Below are positions 3,443-61,813 of a stretch of DNA of 64,000 nucleotides, piece by piece (position 1 is the first letter of the stretch; each line of letters opens with the position of its first letter). A program made the translations under genes and the position numbers. The notes beneath the pieces were generated by a model. That model searched no databases and was not told where the DNA came from. It saw only the letters and a program-made list of their open reading frames with translations. Source of the stretch: Candidatus Saccharimonadales bacterium (GTDB taxonomy: Bacteria > Patescibacteriota > Saccharimonadia > Saccharimonadales > EFPC-124); the NCBI GenBank assembly GCA_035457485.1, contig DATIBO010000006.1, positions 562,659-626,658 of the forward strand. The letters run 5' to 3'.

Positions 3443-3965
3443 TTTATAAGTTTGGGGTGATGGCCCTCGTCCGTATTGCACGAGGGCCATCGCCGATAGA
3501 AGTTTCAGATGGCCGGCTTCTTAGCTCTGCTGTTCATGTAGGCCAGGTATGGATCTGTGGCAGCGACCGCGACAACGTGCTTGAAGCTTGGCGCTCGCTT
3601 GCGGTCAGGCGTACGCAAGAGCTTTACCAGAATGCCAGTTCGACCGCCGATGTAGTAGTCGATCCCGTCGACCTGATACACAGCGTCGGGGCCGTGCGTC
3701 CAGTCGACTCGAAAAACGCACGCCAATCGGGCAGACGTTTCAGGCGCCTTGGGGTCGTAGATGACGATTGTTCGCTTGCGCACCATCTCTCTGAAGTCGG
3801 TGTAAACCGAGGCTTCCAACAGCGCCCCCAGCGGGATGGTGCCGATGTCACCCGTTCGCAAGTAACTCTCGAGTGCCTCCTTTGGGAGCTTCTCTGGGTC
3901 CATGCCATACAGCTTGGGTGTTGCGGTCTTTCCGGTCATCGTCTCGCACCTTTCTATCAGACGAC
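3443..3965. other. GC-rich segment A (putative foreign DNA) between rpsG and fusA
   Basis: Abrupt GC rise relative to the flanks. ORFs open in several frames on both strands, as expected for high-GC DNA. Confidence 0.6.
3505..3939 (-). CDS. Hypothetical protein (144 aa), GC-rich, no family recognised
   Basis: Balanced protein-like composition, unlike the Arg/Ser/Cys/Trp-rich antisense ORF 3457..3978. On the minus strand an AT-rich TATAAT and a GAAAGG RBS precede the ATG. A 12-bp perfect hairpin (3459-3491) lies downstream. Confidence 0.6.
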   Translation of the reverse strand: MTGKTATPKLYGMDPEKLPKEALESYLRTGDIGTIPLGALLEASVYTDFREMVRKRTIVIYDPKAPETSARLACVFRVDWTHGPDAVYQVDGIDYYIGGRTGILVKLLRTPDRKRAPSFKHVVAVAATDPYLAYMNSRAKKPAI

Positions 3966-8068: not shown

Positions 8069-9253
<1,185 letters not shown>

Positions 9254-9270
9254 TCTTAGTAAACTACGCA

Positions 9271-9305
9271 AAAAGAGTCGCAAGTATGCGGCTCTTTTTG
9301 TTTTG
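9271..9305 (+). terminator. Rho-independent terminator after tuf
   Basis: AAAGAGTCGC / GCGGCTCTTT stem plus T-run. Confidence 0.7.
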
Positions 9306-10290
9306 GGTGAAATAATAAGTTCGGTTAGGCGGGCCCGATCTCTGCGCAGTGGCAGTGATCGGGCCCGCGAACGGACAGGAGGTCAGCAGGTCCGGGCCTC
9401 GGCGTACGGGTAGTTCGTGACGCAGTTGCGGTTGAACGGAACCGGGGCCAGCGACTTGGGGTCGAGGACGCGGTCCGTCCAGGTGAACACGAAGTCGTAG
9501 GTCTTGCTGGTGTCGAACGAGTAGTCGTTGACGTTCGGGGCCCACACGTAGGTCTTGCCGCCGTCCTCGCTCATGTAGTTCATGAACGGGATGACGTTGT
9601 CGCCGGCATAGTAGCGGATCCCCACGACGGTGTTCATCTTGGTGATGGCGCCGTTGACGACGATCGCCGGGGTGGACCGCGGCGCGTCGATCACGACCAG
9701 CCAGCCCTCGCTCGGCATCTCGTTGTTCGAGATGGGGTTCAGGCTGTCCCGGTTGGTGATGAACATGATCTTGCCGGTGCTGAGCGCGTTGTCCACGGCC
9801 AACTGGCCCTTGACGAGTCGGAAGTGCATGGCGCCGTTCTGGCACGGGTTGAGCTTGGTCAGGTCCAGCTTGTTGACGTCGAACTTGATGCCGCTCCGGG
9901 GGTTGCCCGGGTCGCAGTTCTCGAACGCCGCCTTACCGTGGATGTAGTCCAGGTAGGCGACCAGGTTCTGGCGCTGGATCACCGAGGTCTTCGGGTTGCA
10001 GATGGTGGCCATCACCAGGGTGTAGGTGTCGGTCGGCTGGGCCGGCGCCGGGTCGTTGCACCCGTAGTAGGCGTCCACCGCCGGCGAGCTGCTGCTCGTG
10101 GGCGAGGACGTGACGCTCGGGGCGGCACTGGGCGACGTGGCCATGGCGGCCGACGGCGAGGCACTGGGCTTGGTCCACTGCTGGGCGGGCTGGCTCGACT
10201 CGCTGCATCCGGCCGCCACGAGGGCGAGCAGAGTGAGAGCGGTGAGCAGCGCCGTGCGCTTGTTGCGCATGTCTCCTCCAGATGGGAATG
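9306..10290. other. GC-rich segment B (putative foreign DNA) downstream of tuf
   Basis: 60-mer 9421-9480 has 42/60 G+C, against 26/60 for tuf 8101-8160 (hand counts). A 12-bp perfect GC hairpin sits at 9328-9367. Confidence 0.7.
9383..10270 (-). CDS. Secreted lipoprotein (295 aa), GC-rich, Ser/Pro-rich linker, Cys-containing C-terminal domain
   Basis: Signal peptide with lipobox LVAAG|C. GGAGGAG RBS. All other ORFs in this interval look like antisense or shadow ORFs. Confidence 0.75.
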   Translation of the reverse strand: MRNKRTALLTALTLLALVAAGCSESSQPAQQWTKPSASPSAAMATSPSAAPSVTSSPTSSSSPAVDAYYGCNDPAPAQPTDTYTLVMATICNPKTSVIQRQNLVAYLDYIHGKAAFENCDPGNPRSGIKFDVNKLDLTKLNPCQNGAMHFRLVKGQLAVDNALSTGKIMFITNRDSLNPISNNEMPSEGWLVVIDAPRSTPAIVVNGAITKMNTVVGIRYYAGDNVIPFMNYMSEDGGKTYVWAPNVNDYSFDTSKTYDFVFTWTDRVLDPKSLAPVPFNRNCVTNYPYAEARTC

Positions 10291-10390
10291 TCCGTCTATA
10301 CGCCTATGTTGTGGCGTAATAGCGAACACTATCATATAACAAAGTATAAGATAAGTCAATACGATAGTACTTGTGTAATGCAAAATAATA

Positions 10391-10399
10391 TGTTATAAT
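10391..10399 (+). promoter_or_regulatory. Extended -10 (TGTTATAAT) upstream of the sortase gene
   Basis: Read directly, 22 nt upstream of the ATG. Confidence 0.45.
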
Positions 10400-10421
10400 T
10401 TGCACAATAACGTAGGATTAT

Positions 10422-11165
10422 ATGCGCAAGAAGACCCCTGTTAAATCGAGAAAAACCGCTTTTAAAATGCCGAAAATGAATCCTGCCCCCGTTGCCGGTA
10501 TTTTGGTAGCGTTTGCTGCTCTAGCATTTTTTAATGCCCAGTTAATCTCGGCCAGAGTTATGGCCTACGTGGCGCCTGCCGATCTTTCAAACGCTAGCCA
10601 AGAGCTTCACACGTCGAACATGGTCGACCCAGCCGAGACTCGTCTGAGTATCCCAAAAATCTCGGTCGACGCTCCAGTTGTTTACGGAATGGGTAAAGTT
10701 GAAGATTACTACGTCCAAAAGGCGCTCGAAGATGGCGTACTCCACTTTGGTGGCTCGCCAACGCCTGGACAGCCGGGAAACTCAGTTTTTGTCGGCCACT
10801 CTAGTAACCAGCCCTGGGCGCCGGGTGATTATAAGTTTGTATTTATGATGCTAGATAAACTTGAAGTTGGTGACAAGATCTTTTTAACATACAAAGGCAC
10901 CCGCTACACCTATGACGTAACCGAGAAAAAGGTCGTAAAACCTAACGATGTATCAGTGCTAGAAGGCAGTAAAACGCCTACAGCTACTTTTATCACCTGT
11001 ACACCGCTTGGCACAAACACAAATCGTTTAGTAATAAAAGCCAAACTTAGCGATCCAGTCTTTGCTAATGAAGACATGGAGGGCTTAAAGAGAAGCGCTC
11101 CTGAGCTCAACGCAGCTTTGCCCGGCCAAGGCTACTCTACTGTCGAGTCATTGACACAACAATAA
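10422..11165 (+). CDS. Sortase family transpeptidase
   Basis: N-terminal TM anchor. Catalytic His (VFVGHS), TxxTC (TFITCTP) and Arg (NRLVIKA). Confidence 0.85.
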   Translation: MRKKTPVKSRKTAFKMPKMNPAPVAGILVAFAALAFFNAQLISARVMAYVAPADLSNASQELHTSNMVDPAETRLSIPKISVDAPVVYGMGKVEDYYVQKALEDGVLHFGGSPTPGQPGNSVFVGHSSNQPWAPGDYKFVFMMLDKLEVGDKIFLTYKGTRYTYDVTEKKVVKPNDVSVLEGSKTPTATFITCTPLGTNTNRLVIKAKLSDPVFANEDMEGLKRSAPELNAALPGQGYSTVESLTQQ

Positions 11166-11169
11166 TATA

Positions 11170-11206
11170 AAAAATGCGCCGTTTCACAAGTGGCGCATTT
11201 TATTTT
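11170..11206. terminator. Bidirectional terminator between the sortase and GT2 genes
   Basis: AAATGCGCC / GGCGCATTT stem flanked by an A-run and a T-run. Confidence 0.7.
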
Positions 11207-12405
11207 TACTGACCAATCTGGGCCCGACGTTTTACGCCTTCCCATGCTAGTACTTTTTTACCGTGTTTGCTGCGATCACGACCCAAAATCACAACCTCTA
11301 CAAAACACCAGATAAACACAAGTAGGCTTACCCAGCGGTAAATGTATAGGTGTGGGAATGCATTAAAAATATCCCAGCGATTACTGCGCATTGCCGCAAA
11401 GGCGGCTACCACGGCGGCAACTATCACGTCGATCATAAAGGTTGCGGCGATAATCTCTGCAAAGCCGCGTTCGGCGGCAATAATCGGCATGACAACAACA
11501 TAGCTTGTGAACATTGCCAAGTTTAAACCTACTTGGTAACTAAGGTAGGCGTCGAGTTTGCTGATTTTTGTACCAATTTTATGAGTAAATAGGCCTTGCA
11601 ATACACCTTTATTCCAGCGATGAATTTGTTTCACAAAGTCGCGAAAGGTTAATGGGTCTTGAGTGTACGCAACAGCTTCTTCTATAAACTGGATTGTCCC
11701 AAGGTTCTTGCGGTGAATCTGTAAGGTTACGTCGAAATCTTCGGCAAGAGCACCCGTATTAAACGCCACCTGTCTAAAAACGTCCGATCTAAAACAAGAT
11801 GTAGGGCCGGGGATAATCGATATAATTCCAGCTAAATCTTGGAAACGTCGCACAATATCCATACCAATCGCATATTCAACGACGCGGAACTGACCAACAA
11901 TCGAACCTTTTAGACTACGGATGTAACCAGTAGCGGCAGCGTTACTGACTCGCAAGTTTTTACGGAAAACCTTAAAGTAGTTACTAGAAAAAGATCCATC
12001 ACCATCAGCTAAGTGAATCCATTTGTAGCGCTCTACAAGATCAAATTTGCGAGCAGCTTTGGTGAGGGCCAATCCCTTACCGCTACGCTTTACTCGCATT
12101 ACGTTTTCGCGACCAAGCACACTTTTAGCGACCGCACTTGTTTTGTCATTCGAAAAATCATCGACAACGTAAATGTCGCTTGGTTTCATGCCCGCTGCGA
12201 TCGCCGAACGCAAAGTATACTCAAGCACTTGCTCTTCGTTGTGGGCTGAAATTAGCAAACAAAGTGTATTTTTGCGACCACCAGTGACTTGGCGGACGGC
12301 TTGCTCGACCTTGAAAACGCTAAGGTTCTCGGTGCTTATCTTAGGACGACGAGTAGTTTTTACTTTGCGCCTCGGAACTGCTATCTGACGTGACTGATTT
12401 TTCAT
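11206..12405 (-). CDS. Processive family-2 glycosyltransferase (PNAG/chitin/cellulose-synthase-like)
   Basis: DDFSNDKT and DGDGS motifs, Q-x-x-R-W (QIHRW), C-terminal TM helices. Confidence 0.8.
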   Translation of the reverse strand: MKNQSRQIAVPRRKVKTTRRPKISTENLSVFKVEQAVRQVTGGRKNTLCLLISAHNEEQVLEYTLRSAIAAGMKPSDIYVVDDFSNDKTSAVAKSVLGRENVMRVKRSGKGLALTKAARKFDLVERYKWIHLADGDGSFSSNYFKVFRKNLRVSNAAATGYIRSLKGSIVGQFRVVEYAIGMDIVRRFQDLAGIISIIPGPTSCFRSDVFRQVAFNTGALAEDFDVTLQIHRKNLGTIQFIEEAVAYTQDPLTFRDFVKQIHRWNKGVLQGLFTHKIGTKISKLDAYLSYQVGLNLAMFTSYVVVMPIIAAERGFAEIIAATFMIDVIVAAVVAAFAAMRSNRWDIFNAFPHLYIYRWVSLLVFIWCFVEVVILGRDRSKHGKKVLAWEGVKRRAQIGQ

Positions 12406-13301
12406 TATTGTGCCTTCTGCTTATCGTAAGCGTTTAAAGCTTCTTCCATCGTGACTATGCGAATTTGGCTATCCTTAATAGTGGCCATTTGCTCGTCTAA
12501 CTGTTTGGGTGTGACGGCGTAATAATCTTCAGATTCATCTTCGATCTGGTGGTAGATCAATATGATCCACGCATTTTTTTCTTTTGCAGCCTCTATAAAA
12601 CGGATAATTTGGTCGACGGTTGTGGTGCGCCGTATACTGAACGCACTAATTTGGTAGGGGTTAAAATTACTACGCATGTTAAATGATCCGTCATAAAGAG
12701 TGTCAATATCAGCATCAGTATTGCGATGGGAGCGGTAGTATTTTTGAATCTCGTTGATAACCTCTTGGTTCTGGCGGTTAAGTGGTGAAGCAAAATCTTT
12801 GACTTCTTTGCCAACTAACTTCGAGATCGCATCGCGTGACTCTTTAAGTTCAAACTCTAGCTCCTCGTGATTAAGCGAAGTTAGGTCATTATGGCTAACG
12901 GTGTGAGATTGAATATCGTGACCAGCTCGGTGTAGTGAAATAATCTGGTCGCGCGACAAATAATTTAAGAAGTCGAGTGATCCGCTTAAAACGTATTGGG
13001 TTGTGCGAATGCCGTGTTTGTCTAAAATTGGCGCACCTTTGCTGTAAACGCTCTCCCAGCCATCGTCAAACGTAACACTGATCATCGGTTCGTCAAAAAG
13101 CCTTACTTCCCCTGGTTCTGGCTGTAAAGTCTGCAAAGTAATTGTGTGGCGTTGGTCGGCAAAAAATGTATTTTTAACCCAAACGCCTACTGATAATATC
13201 GGCAAAAGTGTAACACAAATAGCAATGGCCGAAAGAACGAACTTGTTAGCTCGCTTTAGTTTTCGGCCGTTGCCTTGTGCTGATTTTTTAGGGCTTACCA
13301 T
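12405..13301 (-). CDS. Polysaccharide deacetylase (NodB/CE4 domain), membrane anchored
   Basis: TFDDG and HTVSH motifs. Stop overlaps the GT2 start. Start placed at ATG 13301; the track start at 13361 would overlap the upstream micro-ORF. Confidence 0.8.
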   Translation of the reverse strand: MVSPKKSAQGNGRKLKRANKFVLSAIAICVTLLPILSVGVWVKNTFFADQRHTITLQTLQPEPGEVRLFDEPMISVTFDDGWESVYSKGAPILDKHGIRTTQYVLSGSLDFLNYLSRDQIISLHRAGHDIQSHTVSHNDLTSLNHEELEFELKESRDAISKLVGKEVKDFASPLNRQNQEVINEIQKYYRSHRNTDADIDTLYDGSFNMRSNFNPYQISAFSIRRTTTVDQIIRFIEAAKEKNAWIILIYHQIEDESEDYYAVTPKQLDEQMATIKDSQIRIVTMEEALNAYDKQKAQ

Positions 13302-13318
13302 ATGCCCGTTGCTGGCTG

Positions 13319-13489
13319 TTAGGCTGTAAACTTGGCGGTGCGAGAATAAATGACGCCCCACACAAGCATTCCTAACGCCATCGCAACAGCAATCTGAACT
13401 GTTACTTCAGATCCTGTGTTTGGTAGAATCGCAACAACTGCTGGAGCCGTTGCAGCCAAAATATGTTGGTCGTTATACATGCCTGCCAT
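13319..13489 (-). CDS. 56-aa micro-protein made of a short N-terminus plus an LPNTG sorting-signal-like C-terminus
   Basis: MAGMYNDQHILAATAPAVVAILPNTGSEVTVQIAVAMALGMLVWGVIYSRTAKFTA. Preceded by a GAGGA RBS and the promoter at 13521-13549. First gene of the deacetylase-GT2 operon. Below the 60-aa cutoff of the ORF track. Confidence 0.55.
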   Translation of the reverse strand: MAGMYNDQHILAATAPAVVAILPNTGSEVTVQIAVAMALGMLVWGVIYSRTAKFTA

Positions 13490-13520
13490 TCCTCTGTAGG
13501 TAAGTTAATAATCTAGATTG

Positions 13521-13549
13521 TTTATACACTTTTGTTATTAAAAAGTCAA
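13521..13549 (-). promoter_or_regulatory. Promoter (TTGACT-17-TATAAA, TGn-extended) for the micro-ORF/deacetylase/GT2 operon
   Basis: Reverse-complement reading. Spacing counted as 17 nt. Confidence 0.55.
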
Positions 13550-13777
13550 GTCTAATATAATCATAAAGTAGTAATGTCAATGCTTATGGTTAGAATTACA
13601 GTAGTGGAGTTAGATCCAAGCGAACGGTGACGAATTATGTTATAAATAGTATTTAAAGTATTAACGCTTTACTTTTTTACCCTGAATAGTTTATAATCAC
13701 GACATAAATTAATCGCAACGACAACTCGCTGGGTTACAAAGTATTCACCAGAGAGGTTACGTTGCACGGAGTATTAA

Positions 13778-44617: not shown

Positions 44618-45898
44618 TTACACCCGAGCTGCTTGCAGTTTTTGCTGACTGCGCCGAAGCAAGTCACGGAATTCGACTCGAAGGAAGCTGTCCTCTGGTG
44701 CCTCGTTGAGTCTCTTCATGATGTGAAGGACCAGATCGTAGAGGTCACCGCAGTACACCGACCGGTTACGATAACCTATGCTTCCGTCGGGCAGAAGTTT
44801 CGCCCTCTCTGAAGGCAGACCGCCGCCACAGATCGAGAAGATGTCGCACGACTGACATTCAGACGCGCCTTCCGGGATTCCGCGTTCGTCGGTCATCCTC
44901 AGGATCCAGTACAGAGCGCGTGTCGCCTTGTCGTCGAACACGTTCAGGCCGAAGAGAGAATCCTCGCCTTGCTCGACGCTCTTGTACCAATCGGGGAGGG
45001 CGTAACTGCCATCTACGTCGACAGCGATAGCACCCATGATCCACGGGCCGATCATTTCGATGTTTTCGAACCACGCCAGCTCAAAATCGAGAGCGTAGCC
45101 AGCAATGTGCTGGATGATCTTTTCGAAGATCAAAATTCGGGGTTGCATCTTTTGCTCGACCCAGTGATCGAACAGGCGGCTGTACCAGTCGCCGTACGGA
45201 TTGTAGCCGTCCTCGACAGTCACGATGCCCGGTGGCGGTTCGTCCCAGTTGCCTAGCGGGCGAAGCGGGTCGATCGGCACGCCGAACTGCGACATGTAAT
45301 CGAGCCACGTTGCGGGGTCACGGTTAAACTGCGTGTACGACAGAATCGCGTCCAAAAGCCCCTTGTACCGTGGCTTACGTAGAATGTTCAGGCCACGCAA
45401 AACATCCGCGTGGCTGCTACGCCCGTTGTGGTAAAGGCGCATACCGTTGAATGCTTCGTCGCCATCCAGGCTGACACCGACGGTGATGCCCAGGCGGAAG
45501 AACTCTTCGGCGATCGCCTCTGTCAGCATTGTCGCGTTCGTTTGAACACTGATGTCGACCAAGACGCCAGGCAGCATGCTCCGAATCGAAGCGAATAGGC
45601 GGAAAATCGCCATACTCGCCAGCAGAGGCTCGCCACCATGCAGCACGATGCTGGTCGCCGAGAGTTGGTGCTCGCGCACATACTCAACGATCCGCTTAAT
45701 CGTCGTGCGTGCCGTCTTGACGGTCATCGCTTTAGGCAGATCTCGCCATGACTGATCCTTTAGGAAGAACATGTAGCAGTACGGTTCGCACTTAAGATTG
45801 CACCGGCGGTGAATCTTAATCACAAACTGCCTGGAGACATGCCTCTTTTCTATCCGGATCCGGCGAGGTCTCCTCAGCTCCTCTAGAGGAATATGCAA
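44618..45898 (-). CDS. Radical SAM/SPASM-domain peptide-maturase-like protein, FxsB-like, with CX3CX3C cluster motif
   Basis: ...HRRCNLKCEPYCYMF..DQSW..VLHGGEPLL..SLDGD..GRSSH..CQSCDIFSICGGG..SVYCGDL. TTG start 6 nt after AAGGAG. Confidence 0.75.
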   Translation of the reverse strand: MHIPLEELRRPRRIRIEKRHVSRQFVIKIHRRCNLKCEPYCYMFFLKDQSWRDLPKAMTVKTARTTIKRIVEYVREHQLSATSIVLHGGEPLLASMAIFRLFASIRSMLPGVLVDISVQTNATMLTEAIAEEFFRLGITVGVSLDGDEAFNGMRLYHNGRSSHADVLRGLNILRKPRYKGLLDAILSYTQFNRDPATWLDYMSQFGVPIDPLRPLGNWDEPPPGIVTVEDGYNPYGDWYSRLFDHWVEQKMQPRILIFEKIIQHIAGYALDFELAWFENIEMIGPWIMGAIAVDVDGSYALPDWYKSVEQGEDSLFGLNVFDDKATRALYWILRMTDERGIPEGASECQSCDIFSICGGGLPSERAKLLPDGSIGYRNRSVYCGDLYDLVLHIMKRLNEAPEDSFLRVEFRDLLRRSQQKLQAARV

Positions 45899-46025
45899 TT
45901 TCAGCTCCTTAGGTGCGCGGCATCGTTGCCGTAAGTGTATTTTATCACTTGAATAAAAATCGTTTTAATGCAAACCTAAAAGTACAACACGAGGTGTTGA
46001 AGAATGGCCAGAGGAGGTGAAAAAT

Positions 46026-46328
46026 ATGAGCCTGGTCACAGAGCTGGTAAAGCCCGGTCCGACCGATCTGCGGGAGATCCGCATGAATCGGTTGCGTGGT
46101 GAGATGGGAGCACGTGTCCGCCCGCGCAAGCGCGGTGGGTCGCGCCGCCCGCCGAACCGCGAGCCTTACATGCCGTTCACGATCGGATCCTCGAGTCGAC
46201 GTCGCGGCAGTGACGTTCCGTGGACACTGATGGCCGCCGCATTCCAGTCGAGCGGAGCCAGACGTCTGCGCGTGTTCCGGCGCCGTGTTGGCGTGTACGT
46301 CACCGTACACGCGCGTGTGCTCGGCTGA
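46026..46328 (+). CDS. Arg-rich 100-aa ORF of doubtful coding status
   Basis: Strong GAGGAGG RBS 8 nt before the ATG, and the highest GC at third positions of this frame. However, composition is extreme (Arg/Gly/Pro) and no family was recognised. Confidence 0.3.
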   Translation: MSLVTELVKPGPTDLREIRMNRLRGEMGARVRPRKRGGSRRPPNREPYMPFTIGSSSRRRGSDVPWTLMAAAFQSSGARRLRVFRRRVGVYVTVHARVLG

Positions 46329-50189: not shown

Positions 50190-50815
50190 CGATTTTTTTG
50201 GAGTGATCACCATGACCACCGCCGCCAACGCTATTTCGGCGCTAACCCAGGAAACAACCCGGCTGCCAATGTATTACTCGACAGCGCCGGGCACCACGCG
50301 CACAGGCCGTCTGGTGCGCGAGCGCGACGGCGACCCAATCCTGCCTTGGCTCGAGCGCAAGTTCGACAGCACTCTCTACGTCGTACCTGGCATTGTGCCT
50401 ACGCTCGACCTGAGCGAGATGCTTGACAGTCTGCGTAGCCGTGCCCGAAATTCAACTCCGGGCCTTCGCTGGGCGCGCTGGTTGTCAGTGGACATCTGTG
50501 TAGGCATGCTGTGGCTCCTGGTAGCAAGCTACGACTGGTGGGCCGTGACGCCTGGGGTGCAGCTCTGGTGGACGGCCACGTTCGCCTTTGCCGGCCTCAG
50601 CGCGTTCGTTGGCTGGGACTGGCAGCGTGAGCAACCGAACATGCCCAGTCTGCACACAACCACAGTCGTGGTGGGCGTCAGTCTGACGCTTGCAGCCCTG
50701 GCGCTACTGTTCGGCACCGCATTGATGGCAACCAACATCGTCATGGGAATCTTCTCGTAGGGCAGCGGCCCTCCTCACAGTTTTGCTGGCGAAGGAGGCG
50801 CCGCAAAACTGAGAT
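50190..50815. other. GC-rich segment D
   Basis: 60-mer 50521-50580 has 41/60 G+C (hand count). Flanks are AT-rich. Confidence 0.6.
50212..50760 (+). CDS. GC-rich membrane protein (about 182 aa: soluble N-terminal half plus 3 Trp-rich TM segments)
   Basis: GGAG RBS before ATG 50212, with an alternative GTG at 50203. Hairpin downstream at about 50764-50808. Confidence 0.6.
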   Translation: MTTAANAISALTQETTRLPMYYSTAPGTTRTGRLVRERDGDPILPWLERKFDSTLYVVPGIVPTLDLSEMLDSLRSRARNSTPGLRWARWLSVDICVGMLWLLVASYDWWAVTPGVQLWWTATFAFAGLSAFVGWDWQREQPNMPSLHTTTVVVGVSLTLAALALLFGTALMATNIVMGIFS

Positions 50816-57420: not shown

Positions 57421-57705
57421 GTGGTTAAAGATGAGGCAAAAAAGCCAGGCAAAGTAAAAAGCGCCCTAAAAAGCGTTAAACTGCCGAAAGCTAAACTGGG
57501 GATGAAAATGCCAAAAAAATGGCTTAAAGCTATTGGCGGTTATTTTAGTGGCGCGGTCGTTGAACTTAAACAAGTTAAATGGCCAAACCGCAAAGCCAGC
57601 ATCAGCTTAACAGTGGCAGTAATCTTATTTACAGCAGTAATGAGCGGCTTTATTTTAGCCCTCGACTACGGGTTCGAACAACTATTTAAGCAGGTAATTT
57701 TATAA
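57421..57705 (+). CDS. secE: Preprotein translocase subunit SecE
   Basis: Lys-rich N-terminus, single C-terminal TM, 'ELKQVKWPNRK' motif, position upstream of nusG. GTG start after AAGGAG. Confidence 0.85.
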   Translation: MVKDEAKKPGKVKSALKSVKLPKAKLGMKMPKKWLKAIGGYFSGAVVELKQVKWPNRKASISLTVAVILFTAVMSGFILALDYGFEQLFKQVIL

Positions 57706-58256
57706 TGAGCACAAGCAAACGTTACGACAGCGCCAAACATTGGTATGCTATTCACACTTACAGTGGCTACGAAGAAAAGGTGGCCGAGAGTATTCGTCAG
57801 CGCGTTGACAGCGTTGACATGGCTGACAAAATCTTTGATGTAATGGTTCCAAAAGAGAAGCAAATCGAGATTAAAAACGGTAAGCGACGCGTTGCTGAAA
57901 AGAAGATTTTTCAGGGCTACGTTTTGGTTGAGATGAAACTTAGTGAAGACGCTTGGTACATTATTCGCAACACTCCGGGTGTAACTGGTTTTGTTGGTAG
58001 CGGTACCGCTCCAACCCCAGTTAGCGACGACGAAATGACAAAAATCAAAAAACGCATGGGCGTTGAAGAACCAAAACACCGCATTGATTTTGCGGTCGGC
58101 GAAGTTGTAAGTATTGTTGACGGGCCATTTAAAGGCTTTGACGGTGCGATCAACGAAATTGACACTCAAAAAGGTAAGATCAAAGTGCTGGTTAGTATGT
58201 TTGGTCGCGATACACCTGTTGAGCTCGATGCCCTACAGGTTAAAAAAGTTAGTTAG
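57705..58256 (+). CDS. nusG: Transcription termination/antitermination factor NusG
   Basis: NGN domain plus KOW (GPFKGFDG). Confidence 0.95.
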   Translation: MSTSKRYDSAKHWYAIHTYSGYEEKVAESIRQRVDSVDMADKIFDVMVPKEKQIEIKNGKRRVAEKKIFQGYVLVEMKLSEDAWYIIRNTPGVTGFVGSGTAPTPVSDDEMTKIKKRMGVEEPKHRIDFAVGEVVSIVDGPFKGFDGAINEIDTQKGKIKVLVSMFGRDTPVELDALQVKKVS

Positions 58257-58282
58257 AACCTAAATAAGTCTATATGTGAAGA

Positions 58283-58318
58283 GGTCCCCGCCAGCGATTG
58301 CCAGCGGGGACCTTTTTT
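58283..58318 (+). terminator. Rho-independent terminator after nusG
   Basis: GGTCCCCGC / GCGGGGACC stem plus TTTTTT. Confidence 0.75.
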
Positions 58319-58344
58319 CACACACGATGTTGCGCGGCCGAAGT

Positions 58345-59130
58345 TCAGCCGCCGAGGCCCTCGTACAGCCCCCGGGCGTGGAGGCGGTCGACGATGGCGA
58401 TGAGCGCCTGGATGATGGTGTAGAGCTGCTCGGCCCGCTTGAGGGTCATCTCGGGCGAGCCCTGCTCCTCCGCGGTCTGCGCGGCCGGGTGGATGTAGTC
58501 CACGTCGACCGACATGACTCGCAGGCCGTCGGCCATCGTGAAGATGACCGGAACCATCAGGCTGTCCCACTTGTCGCCGAACTCGCCGTTGTAGTTCAGC
58601 ATGTGGGGGAGGGCCTTGAGCGACCAGACCCGCGGCCCGAACCAGAAGTCGAACTCGGCACCGAGCAGGCCGGCCACGGCGCTGTTGCCCATGATCTCGG
58701 CATGCTGCTGCTCGATCGGGTACGAGGCCAGACTCGTGCGCCGCGGGACCACCAGATCGGCCTGGCCCTGCAGGACCGGGGTCGCCGCCTGGGCCAGGAG
58801 ATCCGCGAAGCTCAGCTTCTCGGGCTCCATCCAGGCGACTGCCTTGCAGCCGATGCGCTGGGAAGCGTAGAGCATCGCTTGCCGGCGACCAGCTCCCATG
58901 CTGGGCTTGCCGGTACGCGGGTCAGGACTCTCCTCGAGAATCGTGACACCGTCGATCCGCCAAACCTGCTCGAGCCACTCCTCGGGGGAGCCGCCGTCCA
59001 CGACCACCACGCGGTAGCCGAGGGCACTGAGCTTCTCGAGAGTGACCAGGGCGAGCTGCGCCCGGGTCTCCATCGCACTGCGGTACATGGTCGTCGTTGC
59101 GACCACGACCTCGGAGCGAGCATTCGTCAC
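58345..59130 (-). CDS. GT-A-fold glycosyltransferase-like protein (about 261 aa), GC-rich
   Basis: Beta-strand/Rossmann pattern VVVATTTMY...VVVVDGGS...WMEPEK. GTG start 5 nt after GAGGTG. The 282-aa track ORF extends into the AT-rich 5' UTR. Confidence 0.5.
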   Translation of the reverse strand: MTNARSEVVVATTTMYRSAMETRAQLALVTLEKLSALGYRVVVVDGGSPEEWLEQVWRIDGVTILEESPDPRTGKPSMGAGRRQAMLYASQRIGCKAVAWMEPEKLSFADLLAQAATPVLQGQADLVVPRRTSLASYPIEQQHAEIMGNSAVAGLLGAEFDFWFGPRVWSLKALPHMLNYNGEFGDKWDSLMVPVIFTMADGLRVMSVDVDYIHPAAQTAEEQGSPEMTLKRAEQLYTIIQALIAIVDRLHARGLYEGLGG

Positions 59131-59316
59131 GCTACACCTCACTTGAATCGTGCGTGATGGGCCACGATCGTAGCCCATAGCAAAAAATGCCAAATGAAAC
59201 TTTATAATTAATTAGTAATATTGTCAATATAAGTTCAGAGGTTTCGACAAAACAGAAACCATAACCCTGCGGAGGAGCGCCACGCATGGCAGCGCCCCTC
59301 CTGACGAAGACTAGGA

Positions 59317-59790
59317 TCAGTCCTCGTCGCCCGCGGCCGCGGTCAGCGCGACGTTCAGTCGCCGTGCGTTGTTGTAGTGGAACACCCGCAGGCACGCGCG
59401 CATCAGCGACCGGCTGGGCAGGCCGCATTCAGGGTGGTAGCGGCGCGGCAGCCGGCGAGCGAGTCGCACCAGAGTGTCACACGAGACAGCGCCGTCGACG
59501 ATCAGTTCGAGCTCGGTGGGTTCCGGGCTGTCTTCGAGCGACGAGAACGCGGCGAGCACGAGGCCCAGGGCGCTTTTACTCGAAACACCCAAGTCGTCCA
59601 TCATGCGGTTGATCGTCGTGCGCGCGATCTCCTCGGAAGGGAACTTCCGGATAGAACGCGCAGCGAGCAGGCCACTGAAGCCTCGGTCTCGCAGCAGAGC
59701 CACGAACGACTGCAGCGTCGCCGCTTCGCGTTCGATCTGGCTCATCGCTGCCGCCACTCGGGGCGGTAGCGAATCTCTACCGTTGCTCAT
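59317..59790 (-). CDS. Putative HTH DNA-binding protein (about 157 aa), GC-rich
   Basis: HTH-like segment PSEEIARTTINRMMDDLGV. ATG 59790 follows GGAAGAAGG. Confidence 0.45.
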   Translation of the reverse strand: MSNGRDSLPPRVAAAMSQIEREAATLQSFVALLRDRGFSGLLAARSIRKFPSEEIARTTINRMMDDLGVSSKSALGLVLAAFSSLEDSPEPTELELIVDGAVSCDTLVRLARRLPRRYHPECGLPSRSLMRACLRVFHYNNARRLNVALTAAAGDED

Positions 59791-59921
59791 GATGCCTTCT
59801 TCCGTACGTCTCACAGGCAGTGTTGCCTCGATAAACGCAAGTCACGGCGTGACAAGGTGAGATCCTGACGCGAATAAAAACGCCAAGAACTCACCTCGTC
59901 AGATTCCTGTTTTGTCAAAGT

Positions 59922-59940
59922 ATTCTGTTTTTTACAGAAT
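59922..59940. promoter_or_regulatory. Perfect inverted repeat ATTCTGT-N5-ACAGAAT in the divergent promoter region (candidate operator)
   Basis: Read directly. Lies between the HTH gene and lipoprotein gene 1. Confidence 0.3.
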
Positions 59941-59983
59941 TCGTAAATTATACACTTTATGTGGTTTTTTGCAAACCATTATT

Positions 59984-60012
59984 TTGACATTGCCGATTGA
60001 AAATGATATAAA
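59984..60012 (+). promoter_or_regulatory. Promoter TTGACA-17-TATAAA for lipoprotein gene 1
   Basis: Consensus -35 hexamer; spacing counted as 17 nt. Confidence 0.55.
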
Positions 60013-60053
60013 AAATACCGCTAAGCACACACGCATCTGCCTGAGGAGGCGGA

Positions 60054-60563
60054 ATGAAACGCACCCTGCGAGACTTCGTGATCAGCGTCGCTATCACGAC
60101 GACAATGCTCCTGACGGCCTGCGGGCCGGAGGATCTGACACCGCGCGTCATGGAATACCCGATCAGCGACAAGCAGGCGGCCGACGTTCAGGCTCAGTTC
60201 CCCGGCATCGTCGGTGCAGGATTCCAGGTCCGACGGTCCGGCACAATCTACCGCACAACGGACAATACGCTCCGCTCCTGGATCACATGGGAAAACCCGG
60301 TCACCAACTGGAAAATCCGCACATTCATCCAGGATGACCCGGCCGACGGTGCCGCTCTGGTGGTGCGCAACGAGCCCCGAATGGAGCTCCGCGTCGAGTT
60401 GGACGGCAAAACGTACGCCTGCAGTGCGGGCGTCGTACCGGGCAGCCTCACCAAGGGGATGCTCGGCAAGCTCGTCGCGCTCAAGCCGACCGACGATCCG
60501 AGCAAGTGGGTCATCGATGGTAACCATTGGAGCTGCCGCGAGGTCGACGGTTCCGCAGTCTAA
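60054..60563 (+). CDS. GC-rich lipoprotein 1 (169 aa)
   Basis: Signal peptide with lipobox LLTA|C. GAGGAGG RBS. Confidence 0.7.
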   Translation: MKRTLRDFVISVAITTTMLLTACGPEDLTPRVMEYPISDKQAADVQAQFPGIVGAGFQVRRSGTIYRTTDNTLRSWITWENPVTNWKIRTFIQDDPADGAALVVRNEPRMELRVELDGKTYACSAGVVPGSLTKGMLGKLVALKPTDDPSKWVIDGNHWSCREVDGSAV

Positions 60564-60647
60564 CGTGAGGTGACAGCATGGTCCTGGGTGAGCTACGGCG
60601 CGCCTGGGACCTTGTCATTTTAAAGAGTCCCTGGGGGTTTAAATAAA

Positions 60648-60676
60648 TTGACTAAAATACAATTTTATGTTAATAT
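60648..60676 (+). promoter_or_regulatory. Promoter TTGACT-17-TAATAT for lipoprotein gene 2
   Basis: Read directly. Confidence 0.5.
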
Positions 60677-60723
60677 ATAAAACCGGAATACTCAGCACCT
60701 ACAACTGTTGCCCTGGAGGCACA

Positions 60724-61224
60724 ATGAACGTCCGTAAACTTGGCGTGGCCGTGAGTCTGTTCGCAGCGCTCCTGTACACTGCCGGCTGCGGTGGTGACGT
60801 CGAGAGCGACCAGGACACTAAAATCCCCGGCCCACGTGTCGAGAAGATGGTCCAGGCGACCACAACCTACAAGACCGTGGCGGCGACCAACTCCACCCTG
60901 AAGTTCGTAGACTACGAGGGTCACACCTACGTGGTCATGATGACCAGCCAGGACCCGCGAAGCGTGGAGCCGTGGTTCGGCATCATGCTCGACGGCGCCG
61001 GCCACATCAAGGCGAACGCGCCGATCCAGGTGATCTGGCCCTCCGACAATCCCTACCAGAACTTCTGGTGTAGTCGCGTCGGCCTCACCGAGCTCACACC
61101 CTCGAACATCGAGCAGGTCAAGATGGTGTGGATCTCCATGGTCAAGCCCGAACACGCCGACTACTGGACCTGGAAGGAAGGCCCGGCCCAGCTCAGCTGG
61201 AGCTGCCGGCTGCGTCATAGCTAA
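60724..61224 (+). CDS. GC-rich lipoprotein 2 (166 aa), possible distant paralogue of lipoprotein 1
   Basis: MNVRKLGVAVSLFAALLYTAG|C lipobox with a GGAGG RBS. Shares a C-S...KP...W...WSCR pattern with lipoprotein 1. Confidence 0.7.
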   Translation: MNVRKLGVAVSLFAALLYTAGCGGDVESDQDTKIPGPRVEKMVQATTTYKTVAATNSTLKFVDYEGHTYVVMMTSQDPRSVEPWFGIMLDGAGHIKANAPIQVIWPSDNPYQNFWCSRVGLTELTPSNIEQVKMVWISMVKPEHADYWTWKEGPAQLSWSCRLRHS

Positions 61225-61280
61225 AACTGAGTTTCCAAGAGCCTGTGCCCCGTGCCCAGGCTCTTGTAATATTCATATGG

Positions 61281-61309
61281 TTGCAAAAAATACAAATATA
61301 ACGTATAAT
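61281..61309 (+). promoter_or_regulatory. Promoter of rplK-rplA (TTGCAA-17-TATAAT)
   Basis: Read directly. Confidence 0.55.
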
Positions 61310-61345
61310 CTACCTCAGTTACGCACTCCGTAAACAATAAAATAA

Positions 61346-61374
61346 GTGGGAGGCATGAAAGCCGCTTGAACCAC
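61346..61374 (+). promoter_or_regulatory. Structured leader element, copy 1 (GTGGGAGGC-loop-GCCGCT-N4-CCAC), candidate L1-binding autoregulatory site
   Basis: Near-identical helix-forming arms to 61822-61851, with different loop sequences. Confidence 0.45.
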
Positions 61375-61387
61375 AAAGGAGTTTTTT

Positions 61388-61813
61388 ATGGCAAAAGTTG
61401 TCAAAGCTAATCTTAAAATGCGCATCCCTGGCGGCCGCGCGACTGCTGGTCCTCCAGTTGGTTCTATCTTAGGTCAGCACGGTCTAAACCTTATGGATTT
61501 TGTTAGCGGCTTTAACGAGCGCAGCAAAGACTACATGGGCAAAGACGTTATTGTGCATGTAAAAGTTTACGAAGACCGTACTTACGACTACGAGATTATC
61601 GGTCAACCAGTCGACGACATGATCCGCGAAGCAATTGGAATCCAAAAAGGTTCTGGCAAACCACACACCGACAAAGTTGGTAAAATTAGCCAAGAAAAAG
61701 TTCGCGAAATCGCCGAAAAGAAGATGACCGTACTAAACGCAAATGATATCGACGCGGCTATGAAAGTTGTAGCCGGAACTGCGCGTAGCATGGGTGTTGA
61801 AGTAGAAAAATAA
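61388..61813 (+). CDS. rplK: 50S ribosomal protein L11
   Basis: Canonical L11 (PPVGSILGQHG). Confidence 0.97.
   Translation: MAKVVKANLKMRIPGGRATAGPPVGSILGQHGLNLMDFVSGFNERSKDYMGKDVIVHVKVYEDRTYDYEIIGQPVDDMIREAIGIQKGSGKPHTDKVGKISQEKVREIAEKKMTVLNANDIDAAMKVVAGTARSMGVEVEK

What the first reader, a model, noticed from the sequence alone, without database searches (positions are those of the whole stretch)
9306..10290. Actinobacterial-style GC-rich lipoprotein directly downstream of tuf
The 295-aa product has a classic Gram-positive lipoprotein signal (MRNKRTALLTALTLLALVAAG|C). This is followed by a Ser/Pro/Ala-rich tether typical of high-GC Gram-positive lipoproteins, and then a roughly 220-aa Cys-containing domain of unknown function. 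The gene is about 70% GC in a roughly 43% GC context. It keeps a GC-rich perfect hairpin (9328-9367) as its 3' end and has a GGAGGAG RBS. It is one of three GC-rich lipoproteins in the window, suggesting selective retention of foreign surface proteins.
Basis: partly seen in the sequence, partly recalled or inferred. Interest (0 to 1): 0.55.

Follow-up and report, generated by a model that had tools for sequence, protein, structure and literature searches.

The report
Native surface lipoprotein with extreme GC3
This gene for a small surface-anchored protein of a Saccharimonadales (CPR) bacterium looks imported from a high-GC host, but its only relatives are in other Saccharimonadales, most are equally G/C-rich at silent codon positions, and the encoded amino acids are native-like, so an actinobacterial import is unlikely and what keeps it GC-rich is unknown.

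Summary
A 295-aa ORF (9383-10270, minus strand) lies convergent with tuf. It has a lipobox signal, a Ser/Pro/Ala linker, a six-Cys domain, a GGAGGAG ribosome-binding site and a GC-rich 3' hairpin (9329-9368). GC is 65.5%, not 70%. GC3 is 0.966 against 0.408 +/- 0.045 for 70 native genes.

The "actinobacterial import" reading is not supported. A search of 1.84 billion representative proteins found about nine real relatives. Every contig recovered has 41-56% GC. Six loci, the window included, can be tied to Saccharimonadales. Five of them carry the gene in or next to the variable tuf-rpsJ interval. Two pattern scans of GTDB species genomes and searches of phages, plasmids, IMG/VR, Pfam and PDB found nothing.

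Nine of ten independent members are themselves GC3-rich (0.73-0.97) against neighbours at 0.34-0.67. Their synonymous sites are scrambled between C and G. The target's amino-acid usage matches native proteins. So the GC excess is purely synonymous and appears to persist within this lineage.

Best reading: a native, fast-evolving, membrane-anchored surface protein whose transcript is held GC-rich. I favour selection on the mRNA; biased gene conversion or an unsampled cassette pool remain possible. Function and fold are unknown.

The parts
10331..10359 (-). Sigma-70-type promoter, TTGACT-17 nt-TATGAT.
   Evidence: The scan gave 10 of 12 matches. It aligns with the near-consensus ATTGACTTT-N17-TAtaAT promoter found upstream of all 12 family genes. 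It lies in a 24-30% GC stretch.
10271..10324 (-). 5' UTR of about 55 nt. It has a small stem-loop (core about 10300-10317, TACGCC/GGCGTA) and the GGAGGAG ribosome-binding site at 10273-10279.
   Evidence: The 78-nt stretch 10268-10345, which also includes the -10 region, folds at -24.8 kcal/mol, z = -4.2. Comparable UTR hairpins and GAGGAGG sites occur in the homologues. The transcription start is inferred, not shown.
10208..10270 (-). Signal peptide, residues 1-21 (MRNKRTALLTALTLLALVAAG).
   Evidence: It has a positive n-region (R2, K4, R5) and a hydrophobic core, and the model predicts a helix over residues 3-21. The lipobox patterns match.
10205..10207 (-). Cys22 codon (TGC), the predicted lipidation site and first residue of the mature protein.
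   Evidence: The lipobox reads V-A-A-G-C. Cys at this position is not conserved in the family: only the target and P0011 have it.
10076..10204 (-). Low-complexity Ser/Pro/Ala/Thr linker, residues 23-65.
   Evidence: pLDDT is 28-37. This is the most GC-rich part of the gene, at 70-76%. Its length varies among homologues.
9386..10075 (-). Globular domain, residues 66-295. It has helices at about 63-110 and a beta-rich part at about 146-266. Three Cys pairs are proposed: C71/C92, C119/C143 and C284/C295. Family motifs are PC(P/Q)NG and TYDxVFTW.
   Evidence: The family alignment shows C119 invariant and C143 nearly invariant. The AF2 model built on a 13-sequence alignment has pLDDT 70-90 over most of 141-280. 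There are no Pfam, PDB or Foldseek matches.
9383..9385 (-). Stop codon TGA.
9329..9368 (-). GC-rich hairpin in the 3' UTR, with no T-run. It starts 15 nt after the stop codon.
   Evidence: Similar strong GC-rich hairpins follow the other GC3-rich family genes shown; L003's is not evident by eye and L002's contig ends before it. They also follow all eight GC3-rich genes of the window. The sequences are unrelated to each other, so this is not a repeated element.
9269..9300 (.). Bidirectional intrinsic terminator shared with tuf (CAAAAAGAGTCGCA/TGCGGCTCTTTTTG).
   Evidence: DNA homology with the relative's locus L012 runs through tuf and this terminator to position 9305 and then stops.

Best explanation
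The gene encodes a lineage-restricted, fast-evolving cell-surface protein native to Saccharimonadales. It is not a recent actinobacterial import.

Mechanism (inferred): a strong sigma-70 promoter drives a transcript with a structured 5' UTR and a near-perfect Shine-Dalgarno sequence. The product is exported by Sec. In this copy it is lipid-modified at Cys22 and cleaved; in most relatives an uncleaved N-terminal helix does the anchoring instead. A disordered linker of about 43 residues holds a domain of about 230 residues, stabilised by disulfides, outside the membrane. There it probably contacts the host cell, phage or the environment. Its very rapid divergence fits that role.

The extreme GC3 is a property of the transcription unit that is kept up within this lineage. 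My preferred cause is selection on the mRNA: a G/C-saturated body, a 5' stem-loop with a strong Shine-Dalgarno sequence, and a 3' stem-loop would together give a long-lived or specially translated message.

Likelihoods:
- Native family rather than actinobacterial import: about 0.8.
- Surface-anchored (lipo)protein: about 0.6.
- mRNA-level selection as the cause of the GC3: about 0.35.
For: Distribution:
- phmmer against 1.84 billion representatives gave 10 hits besides the query, one of them probably spurious.
- All contigs recovered have 41-56% GC.
- L003, L010 and L004 cluster with named Saccharimonadales proteins.
- L012, L002, L010 and L003 are syntenic with the window: tuf is 82.7% nt identical, S10 94-96% aa, sortase 72% aa.
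- Nothing was found in two pattern scans of 185,579 GTDB species genomes, two scans of JGI metagenome contigs, IMG/VR, or phages and plasmids.

Family-wide anomaly:
- Nine of ten independent members, plus two paralogues, have GC3 0.73-0.97 against neighbours at 0.34-0.67.

Persistence:
- Flanking genes share the same codon at only 0.35-0.45 of conserved residues, which is close to saturation.
- At fourfold sites of family orthologues where both end in G or C, the base is the same in only 0.54-0.69 of cases. That is near random, yet the sites remain G/C.

Synonymous-only enrichment:
- The target has GC1 0.52, FYMINK 0.27 and K/(K+R) 0.55. Native proteins have 0.54, 0.28 and 0.60. Phage phiC31 has 0.65, 0.18 and 0.38.

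Transcript-shaped boundaries:
- The promoter region has 18-32% GC and the shift to high GC occurs at the UTR and start codon. All members have a near-consensus promoter of the same type. Strong 3' hairpins follow the GC3-rich genes.

Anchoring:
-.
Against: - No expression, half-life or localisation data exist.
- The lipobox test used patterns written from memory, and lgt/lspA were not seen in the window.
- The fold is only moderately confident (pLDDT 65) and has no structural neighbour, so the function is a guess.
- The taxonomy of L001, L007, L008 and L011 is unconfirmed.
- One positional counterpart (L012) has native GC3 of 0.43, and one member (L011) has high-GC-type amino acids. The trait is therefore not universal.
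- The tuf-rpsJ slot is presence/absence variable and family proteins are only 24-40% identical. Cassette replacement rather than divergence in place cannot be excluded.
- GC-rich non-coding flanks also fit a regional process such as biased gene conversion.
- Highly expressed native genes such as tuf have low GC3 (0.37). G/C-ending codons are therefore not the general 'optimal' set here.
Confidence: 0.45

Rival explanations
1. GC-biased gene conversion at a recombination hot spot. The gene sits in a hypervariable slot between highly conserved anchors (tuf, rpsJ, sortase) in a naturally competent lineage. Frequent allele exchange, or conversion among paralogues with GC-biased mismatch repair, would drive silent sites and nearby non-coding DNA toward G/C. 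Selection would keep the promoter AT-rich and hold the protein sequence.
For: - The slot is variable among relatives, and paralogues exist in L001 and L007.
- GC-richness extends into the 5' UTR (0.44-0.62) and the 3' flank (0.64-0.76), not only the codons.
- Saccharibacteria are naturally competent (PMC10633639).
- A link between recombination and GC3 in bacteria has been reported (PMC4450053).
Against: - From my own recollection of that literature, which I did not re-read here, the reported bacterial effects are a few percent of GC3, not a rise from 0.41 to 0.97.
- A bias that strong should also push nearly neutral replacements such as K to R or I to V toward GC. The target's K/(K+R) of 0.55 and NKIYF of 0.26 are native.
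- Unrelated single-copy GC3-rich genes in the window show the same anatomy.
Confidence: 0.2
2. Cassette turnover from an unsampled high-GC gene pool. Divergent alleles of this family would circulate on a mobile element or phage with high GC, perhaps one shared between Saccharimonadales and their hosts. They would repeatedly replace one another at conserved slots, so each copy is young in its present genome and has not yet ameliorated.
For: - Family proteins are only 24-40% identical while tuf and S10 are 94-97% identical.
- The slot is empty or otherwise occupied in L014.
- GC3 values form a series (0.43, 0.73, 0.80... 0.97) that could be read as stages of amelioration.
- L011's member has high-GC-type amino acids with a decayed GC3.
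- Neighbouring GC3-rich ORFans in L001 and L007 cannot be aligned although PolA is 92% identical.
Against: - No family member was found on any high-GC or viral contig in any collection searched.
- The target shows the reverse of amelioration: foreign-looking GC3 with native-looking GC1, GC2 and amino acids.
- Every cassette already has a native-type AT-rich consensus promoter abutting the GC-rich body.
- No integrase or significant flanking repeats were seen; the only 12-nt direct repeat has p of about 0.08.
Confidence: 0.15
3. One reading: a recent horizontal import of a lipoprotein gene from a high-GC Actinomycetota host, retained because it serves at the symbiont surface.
For: - GC3 of 0.966, a TGA stop, and codon choices (ACC, GGC, CTG, CCG, AAG, and so on) are typical of actinomycetes.
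- A GC-rich hairpin without a T-run resembles the 'I-shaped' actinobacterial terminators (my own knowledge).
- The signal peptide and Ser/Pro/Ala tether weakly resemble mycobacterial LppK over the N-terminus only (E = 0.012, far below the cutoff).
- Cultivated Saccharibacteria live on Actinobacteria and take up DNA (PMC10633639).
- Three other GC-rich genes in the window do have high-GC-type amino-acid usage.
Against: - No actinobacterial homologue exists among 1.84 billion representatives or the GTDB species genomes.
- All relatives lie in mid-GC contexts, several of them Saccharimonadales, often at the same locus.
- Amino-acid composition is native: GC1 is 0.52, against 0.65 even in 63.6%-GC phage phiC31.
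- The GC boundary falls at the transcript start, behind the same type of near-consensus promoter that every family member has.
Confidence: 0.08

Closest known systems
Gram-positive / actinobacterial lipoproteins with a Ser/Pro/Ala tether (e.g. mycobacterial LppK, NF053526; SP_0198 family, NF040528)
   Same: An N-terminal signal peptide with a lipobox Cys, followed by a low-complexity linker and a small globular domain. The presumed anchoring mode is the same.
   Different: Similarity is confined to residues 1-59 or 7-73 (signal plus linker). Scores are 15-16 bits against cutoffs of 100-125. The globular domain is unrelated to any Pfam, NCBIfam or PDB entry. Most family members lack the lipobox Cys.
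Compositionally atypical genomic islands acquired by horizontal transfer
   Same: A sharp, gene-sized compositional discontinuity next to conserved housekeeping genes, in a slot that varies among relatives.
   Different: The shift is GC-up rather than the usual AT-up. It affects only synonymous sites. The gene has no outside donor, and the shift recurs in nearly all homologues in different genomes.
Large GC-rich (lgr) genes of Protochlamydia amoebophila (PMC2216083)
   Same: A lineage-specific gene family with no homologues in other organisms, named for G+C content above that of its genome, in an obligately host-associated bacterium.
   Different: The lgr genes are 5.6-kb leucine-rich-repeat genes described as recent duplications within one genome (abstract). 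Here the genes are short, encode secreted Cys-containing proteins, and the trait spans several genomes separated by saturated synonymous divergence.
GC-biased gene conversion signatures in bacteria (PMC4450053)
   Same: Higher GC3 associated with recombination, independent of genome-wide mutation bias.
   Different: The magnitude here is extreme and gene-specific, and nearly neutral amino-acid choices show no GC shift.
mRNA stabiliser architectures (5' stem-loop or STAB-SD elements, REP-like 3' stem-loops; cited from my own knowledge of ompA, cryIIIA and the E. coli REP literature)
   Same: A 5' UTR hairpin, a very strong Shine-Dalgarno sequence close to the 5' end, and a stable 3' stem-loop upstream of the real terminator.
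   Different: In known cases the coding body is not recoded to G/C-ending codons. No stability measurement exists here. The 3' hairpins are not a repeated sequence family.

Membership tests
Bacterial lipoprotein (Lgt/LspA substrate) | An N-terminal signal peptide with a positively charged n-region and a hydrophobic h-region. | tested here: met
   The peptide is MRNKRTALLTALTLLALVAAG. R2, K4 and R5 are positive, and the model predicts a helix over residues 3-21.
Bacterial lipoprotein (Lgt/LspA substrate) | A lipobox [LVI][ASTVI][GAS]C with the Cys within about 15-35 residues of the start. | tested here: met
   LVAAG-C22 matches the G+LPPv2 and PS00013 regular expressions, which I wrote from memory. 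Position -3 is Ala rather than Leu. SignalP and LipoP were not available.
Bacterial lipoprotein (Lgt/LspA substrate) | The genome encodes Lgt and LspA. | not testable with these tools
   A motif scan of the 64-kb window found neither. The remaining roughly 825 kb of the genome was not available.
Bacterial lipoprotein (Lgt/LspA substrate) | The lipidated Cys is conserved across orthologues. | tested here: not met
   Only the target and P0011 have it. P0011's close relatives P0013 and P0014 have Leu there, and the other members have a plain hydrophobic anchor. Lipidation, if real, is specific to this copy.
Horizontally acquired gene from high-GC Actinomycetota | The closest homologues are in the donor clade. 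| tested here: not met
   All hits lie on 41-56% GC contigs, and six loci can be tied to Saccharimonadales. There were no hits in GTDB species genomes, phages or plasmids.
Horizontally acquired gene from high-GC Actinomycetota | Donor-like composition at all three codon positions and in amino-acid usage. | tested here: not met
   GC3 of 0.97 is donor-like. GC1 of 0.52, FYMINK of 0.27 and K/(K+R) of 0.55 match native genes and differ from the actinophage control. That control is a single phage.
Horizontally acquired gene from high-GC Actinomycetota | Absent from the same locus in related genomes, as expected for a recent insertion. | tested here: inconclusive
   A family member is present at the tuf/rpsJ/sortase slot in L002, L012, L010 and L003. 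It is absent from L014. The slot is variable.
Sortase substrate (the neighbouring gene is a sortase) | A C-terminal LPXTG-type sorting signal followed by a hydrophobic tail. | tested here: not met
   The C-terminus reads ...CVTNYPYAEARTC, with no LPXTG-like motif or tail. The neighbouring gene matches the Sortase family PF04203.
Any curated protein family (Pfam, NCBIfam, PDB) | A significant profile or structural match for the globular domain. | tested here: not met
   Pfam gave no hits for the target or for ten members. The best PDB profile hit had E = 0.056. Foldseek against PDB and BFVD gave best E values of 0.04-0.06 with TM about 0.1.

The most novel reading that the evidence does not exclude
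Saccharimonadales may keep a class of accessory, mostly surface-protein genes at near-saturated G/C third positions inside 45-55% GC genomes. This would be through selection on the transcript itself, giving an 'armoured', long-lived or conditionally translated mRNA with a consensus promoter, a 5' stem-loop and strong Shine-Dalgarno sequence, a GC3-rich body and a 3' stem-loop. That would be a gene-specific codon regime not previously described in bacteria. A more extreme version is that the codon usage is tuned to the high-GC host's translation system, because the message or the gene acts inside the host.
Probability: 0.3. Interest if true: 0.85.

Novelty: new variant of a known kind. Interest (0 to 1): 0.62.

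Why it matters
GC-rich islands in episymbiont genomes are routinely read as gene transfer from the host. This case shows that reading can fail. The GC excess is purely synonymous, it recurs across a family found only on mid-GC contigs, several of them demonstrably Saccharimonadales, and it survives saturated synonymous divergence.

If a selective or conversion-based force keeps particular transcripts G/C-saturated, three things follow.
- It would be a new handle on gene regulation or recombination in CPR bacteria.
- It would flag a set of fast-evolving surface proteins as candidates for host recognition.
- It would caution against composition-based HGT calls in these lineages.

The question is experimentally tractable, because Saccharibacteria can now be genetically manipulated (PMC10633639).

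Tried and rejected
- Word-indexed homology searches returned almost nothing: the query alone, then 2 and then 3 proteins. The first alignment query was swamped by words from the low-complexity linker.
- Pattern scans of GTDB genomes (twice), JGI metagenome contigs (twice) and IMG/VR found no confirmed relative.
- tblastn against phages and plasmids gave no match.
- The single-sequence AF2 model was useless (pLDDT 32). The model from 13 sequences (pLDDT 65) gave no Foldseek neighbour in PDB or BFVD. MPT63 appeared at rank 11 with probability 0.09 and I disregarded it.
- A PDB profile search gave only E = 0.056 to an O-glycan protease, which is not significant.
- Rfam found nothing in the UTRs.
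- A mobile cassette with a target-site duplication: the 12-nt flanking repeat is matched in 16 of 200 shuffles, and other loci show only shared terminator tails. Rejected as evidence.
- A REP-like repeated element: the 3' hairpins have unrelated sequences. Rejected.
- Homology of the target to the other two GC-rich lipoproteins in the window: rejected by profile search.
- Sortase substrate: no sorting signal.
- The exact-sequence contig look-up for the query's own record was not on file.
- Literature searches found no description of GC3-rich gene classes in Saccharibacteria within the held library. This does not prove that none exists.
- Organism names could not be obtained for L001, L007, L008 or L011.
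Full report
**1. What is there**

The window has 45.5% GC and carries many ribosomal-protein and translation genes. The query protein is identical to HSE29570.1 from a 'Candidatus Saccharimonadales bacterium' MAG, on an 889-kb contig.

- The ORF runs from 9383 to 10270 on the minus strand and encodes 295 aa. It is convergent with tuf (8069-9253) and divergent from a sortase gene (10422-11165; PF04203).
- The product starts MRNKRTALLTALTLLALVAAG|C and matches two lipobox patterns.
- Residues 23-65 are Ser/Pro/Ala/Thr-rich and predicted disordered. The remaining roughly 230 aa carry six Cys.
- A TTGACT-17-TATGAT promoter lies at 10359-10331. The stretch around the 5' UTR (10268-10345) is structured, z = -4.2.
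- GGAGGAG lies four bases before the ATG.
- A GC-rich hairpin at 9329-9368 follows the stop codon; the 66-nt segment holding it folds at -35 kcal/mol. Next comes the bidirectional terminator shared with tuf, at 9269-9300.
- GC is 65.5%, split as GC1 0.52, GC2 0.48 and GC3 0.966. Seventy native ORFs have GC3 of 0.408 +/- 0.045.

Only the '70% GC' figure needs correcting.

**2. Relatives and where they live**

There is no Pfam or NCBIfam family; only signal-and-linker noise scored, at 15-16 bits. An exhaustive phmmer search against 1.84 billion representatives found 10 other proteins, one of which (a 1065-aa repeat protein) is probably spurious. They form a family built on a domain of about 190 residues. 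It has an invariant or nearly invariant Cys pair (C119/C143), a frequent C-terminal pair, and the motifs PC(P/Q)NG and TYDxVFTW.

I recovered the contigs of all members. None is high-GC; backgrounds are 41-56%.

| Locus | Evidence for its lineage or position |
|---|---|
| L012 | The family gene is convergent with a tuf that is 96% aa and 82.7% nt identical to the window's. DNA homology ends at 9305, just before the GC-rich block. |
| L002 | Carries the closest homologue (40% aa), divergent from a sortase 72% identical to the window's. |
| L010 | The gene lies between rpsJ (S10 94% identical) and the 3' end of tuf. |
| L003 | The gene lies next to rpsJ (S10 96% identical). |
| L003, L010 | Their S10 proteins fall in a 90% cluster with named Saccharimonadales or Saccharibacteria proteins. 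|
| L004 | Its UvrC falls in a 90% cluster with a named Saccharimonadales protein. |
| L001, L007, L008, L011 | Could not be named. |

Pattern scans of 185,579 GTDB species genomes (twice), JGI metagenome contigs (twice) and IMG/VR found nothing. tblastn against phage and plasmid collections also found nothing. The tuf-rpsJ interval is a variable slot: in another Saccharimonadales genome (L014, tuf 83.6% nt identical) it holds an unrelated 114-aa ORF of ordinary composition.

**3. The unexpected result**

Nearly every family member is compositionally anomalous in its own genome.

| Member | GC3 |
|---|---|
| Window | 0.97 |
| L008 | 0.96 |
| L001 | 0.95 |
| L002 | 0.89 |
| L007 | 0.89 |
| L004 | 0.88 |
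| L003 | 0.81 |
| L010 | 0.80 |
| L011 | 0.73 |
| L012 (the exception) | 0.43 |
| Paralogues in L001 / L007 | 0.85 / 0.78 |

Neighbouring Pfam-annotated genes sit at 0.34-0.67.

Between genome pairs, flanking genes use the same codon at only 35-45% of conserved residues, which is close to saturation. In the family orthologues, fourfold sites where both copies end in G or C carry the same base in only 54-69% of cases. The expectation for random choice is roughly 52% given the C:G ratio. Silent sites have therefore turned over while remaining G/C. A single ancestral import should have ameliorated over that time.

**4. The enrichment is synonymous only**

| Measure | Target | Native window proteins | Phage phiC31 (63.6% GC, GC3 0.77) |
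|---|---|---|---|
| GC1 | 0.52 | 0.54 | 0.65 |
| FYMINK | 0.27 (0.32 in the domain) | 0.28 | 0.18 |
| GARP | 0.27 | 0.26 | 0.34 |
| K/(K+R) | 0.55 | 0.60 | 0.38 |
| NKIYF | 0.26 | 0.26 | 0.17 |

Sources. A donor with GC3 near 0.97 would be expected to be more extreme than phiC31. That expectation rests on the known correlation among codon positions (Muto and Osawa), which I cite from memory. The pattern is also the reverse of amelioration, in which silent sites decay first.

Three other GC-rich genes of the window (50203-50760, 58345-59193, 59317-59814) do show high-GC-type amino-acid usage, with K/(K+R) 0.08-0.27 and NKIYF 0.12-0.14. They are better candidates for true imports. The window's GC-rich genes are therefore heterogeneous.

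**5. Shape of the GC-rich block**

The pattern is the same across the family loci:
- GC is 0.18-0.32 at positions -100 to -51, where a near-consensus ATTGACTTT-N17-TAtaAT promoter aligns in all 12 genes.
- GC rises in a 5' UTR of about 50 nt that carries a small hairpin and a GAGGAGG-type Shine-Dalgarno sequence.
- GC stays high through the CDS.
- The block ends in a long GC-rich hairpin without a T-run.
- Where enough downstream sequence is available, a separate native-style terminator usually follows.

All eight GC3-rich genes of the window have strong 3' hairpins, at -22 to -37 kcal/mol. Three of the four perfect GC-rich hairpins in the 64 kb are at such gene ends. The hairpin sequences are unrelated to one another, so this is not a repeat family. 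The GC-rich unit is essentially the transcript.

**6. Interpretation**

The protein is most likely a membrane-anchored extracytoplasmic protein. In this copy the anchor would be a lipid on Cys22. In most relatives an N-terminal hydrophobic helix lacking the Cys would do the job. A flexible linker would hold the domain away from the membrane, and paired conserved cysteines suggest disulfides; both points are inferences.

The domain's fold is only moderately predicted (helices, then a beta-rich part; pLDDT 65) and has no significant neighbour in PDB or BFVD. The biochemical function is therefore unknown. Three features fit a role at the interface with the host, phage or environment:
- Rapid divergence: 24-40% identity where S10 and tuf are 94-97% identical.
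- Presence/absence variation of the slot.
- Paralogy.

Four explanations for the GC3 were weighed.

- (a) Selection on the transcript is preferred, at about 0.35 within the overall model. The enrichment is confined to silent sites, follows transcript boundaries, and comes with features known elsewhere to stabilise mRNA.
- (b) GC-biased gene conversion at a recombining hypervariable locus in a naturally competent lineage (PMC10633639, PMC4450053) explains the GC-rich flanks. It should also have shifted K/R and I/V usage, which it has not.
- (c) Turnover from an unsampled high-GC cassette pool explains the divergence, the GC3 series and L011. It does not explain the absence of any high-GC carrier or the native amino-acid usage.
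- (d) Direct import from an actinobacterial host is the least supported.

**7. Comparison with the known, and verdict**

As a protein, this is a new, uncharacterised, lineage-restricted family of surface-anchored proteins. That is an ordinary kind of thing. As a compositional phenomenon it departs from the usual 'atypical island means HGT' picture. I found no description of it in the searchable literature.

- Interest: 0.62.
- Novelty: new variant of a known kind.
- The lipoprotein reading is plausible but specific to this copy.

Noticed in passing
window 58257-61387: A 3.1-kb GC-rich insert sits between nusG (57705-58256) and rplK (61388-61813), which are normally adjacent. It holds at least four genes: 58345-59193(-), 59317-59814(-), 60054-60563(+) and 60721-61224(+). 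Each has its own AT-rich promoter region and a GC-rich 3' hairpin. The first two have high-GC-type amino-acid usage (K/(K+R) 0.27 and 0.09), so they may be genuine imports. The last two are lipoprotein-like. None has a Pfam match.
   Followed up: partly
window 50203-50760 (+): A GC-rich (62%, GC3 0.75) 185-aa membrane-protein ORF with strongly high-GC-type amino-acid usage (K/(K+R) 0.08, NKIYF 0.12). It has a 3' GC hairpin and no Pfam match.
   Followed up: partly
window 44618-46328: A GC-rich radical SAM gene (44618-45898, minus strand; PF04055; GC3 0.70) lies divergent from a small Arg-rich 103-aa ORF (46017-46328, plus strand; GC3 0.71) that has its own AGAGGAGG ribosome-binding site. This could be a peptide-modification pair. 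I did not examine it further.
   Followed up: no
window 3459-3939: A GC3-rich (0.72) 144-aa ORF at 3505-3939(-) has no Pfam match. It is followed by a perfect 11-bp GC-rich hairpin at 3459-3491.
   Followed up: partly
window 9254-13777, compared with L010, L003, L012 and L014: The tuf-rpsJ interval is a variable slot in Saccharimonadales. Here it holds the target, a sortase, a GT2 glycosyltransferase and a polysaccharide deacetylase. In L010 it holds the family gene plus two small ORFs. In L014 it holds only an unrelated 114-aa membrane ORF.
   Followed up: partly
window 10259-10270 and 10422-10433: The target and the divergently transcribed sortase gene begin with almost the same 12 nt (ATGCGCAACAAG and ATGCGCAAGAAG, encoding MRNK and MRKK). 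Together they form a 12-nt inverted repeat 151 nt apart.
   Followed up: no
window 9310-9321 and 10383-10394: A 12-nt direct repeat (AAATAATAAGTT and AAATAATATGTT) brackets the promoter, CDS and hairpin unit. Sixteen of 200 shuffles give an equally good match, so it is probably chance.
   Followed up: yes
L001 1732-4744 and 11782-12417; L007 2449-2829 and 6008-9809: Related contigs (PolA 92% identical) carry several further GC3-rich (0.77-0.91) ORFs, nearly all without a Pfam match (one has a UCP032817-like hit), at syntenic slots. Two of them are family paralogues. Others, such as L001 3617-4744 and L007 6994-8037, cannot be aligned with each other.
   Followed up: partly
L011 227-901 and L012 965-1537: Two family members break the pattern. 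P0005 (L011) has high-GC-type amino acids (K/(K+R) 0.10, GC1 0.63) but a GC3 of only 0.73. P0010 (L012) sits at the same tuf-adjacent slot as the target but has a native GC3 of 0.43.
   Followed up: partly
L004, L007, L008, L010 and the L001/L007 paralogues, downstream of the family genes: After the GC-rich hairpin, the native terminators have a similar shape (CACC...GGTG followed by a T-run). In L007 and in the L001 paralogue the same terminator tail also lies upstream of the promoter, which gives the units a modular, cassette-like look.
   Followed up: partly
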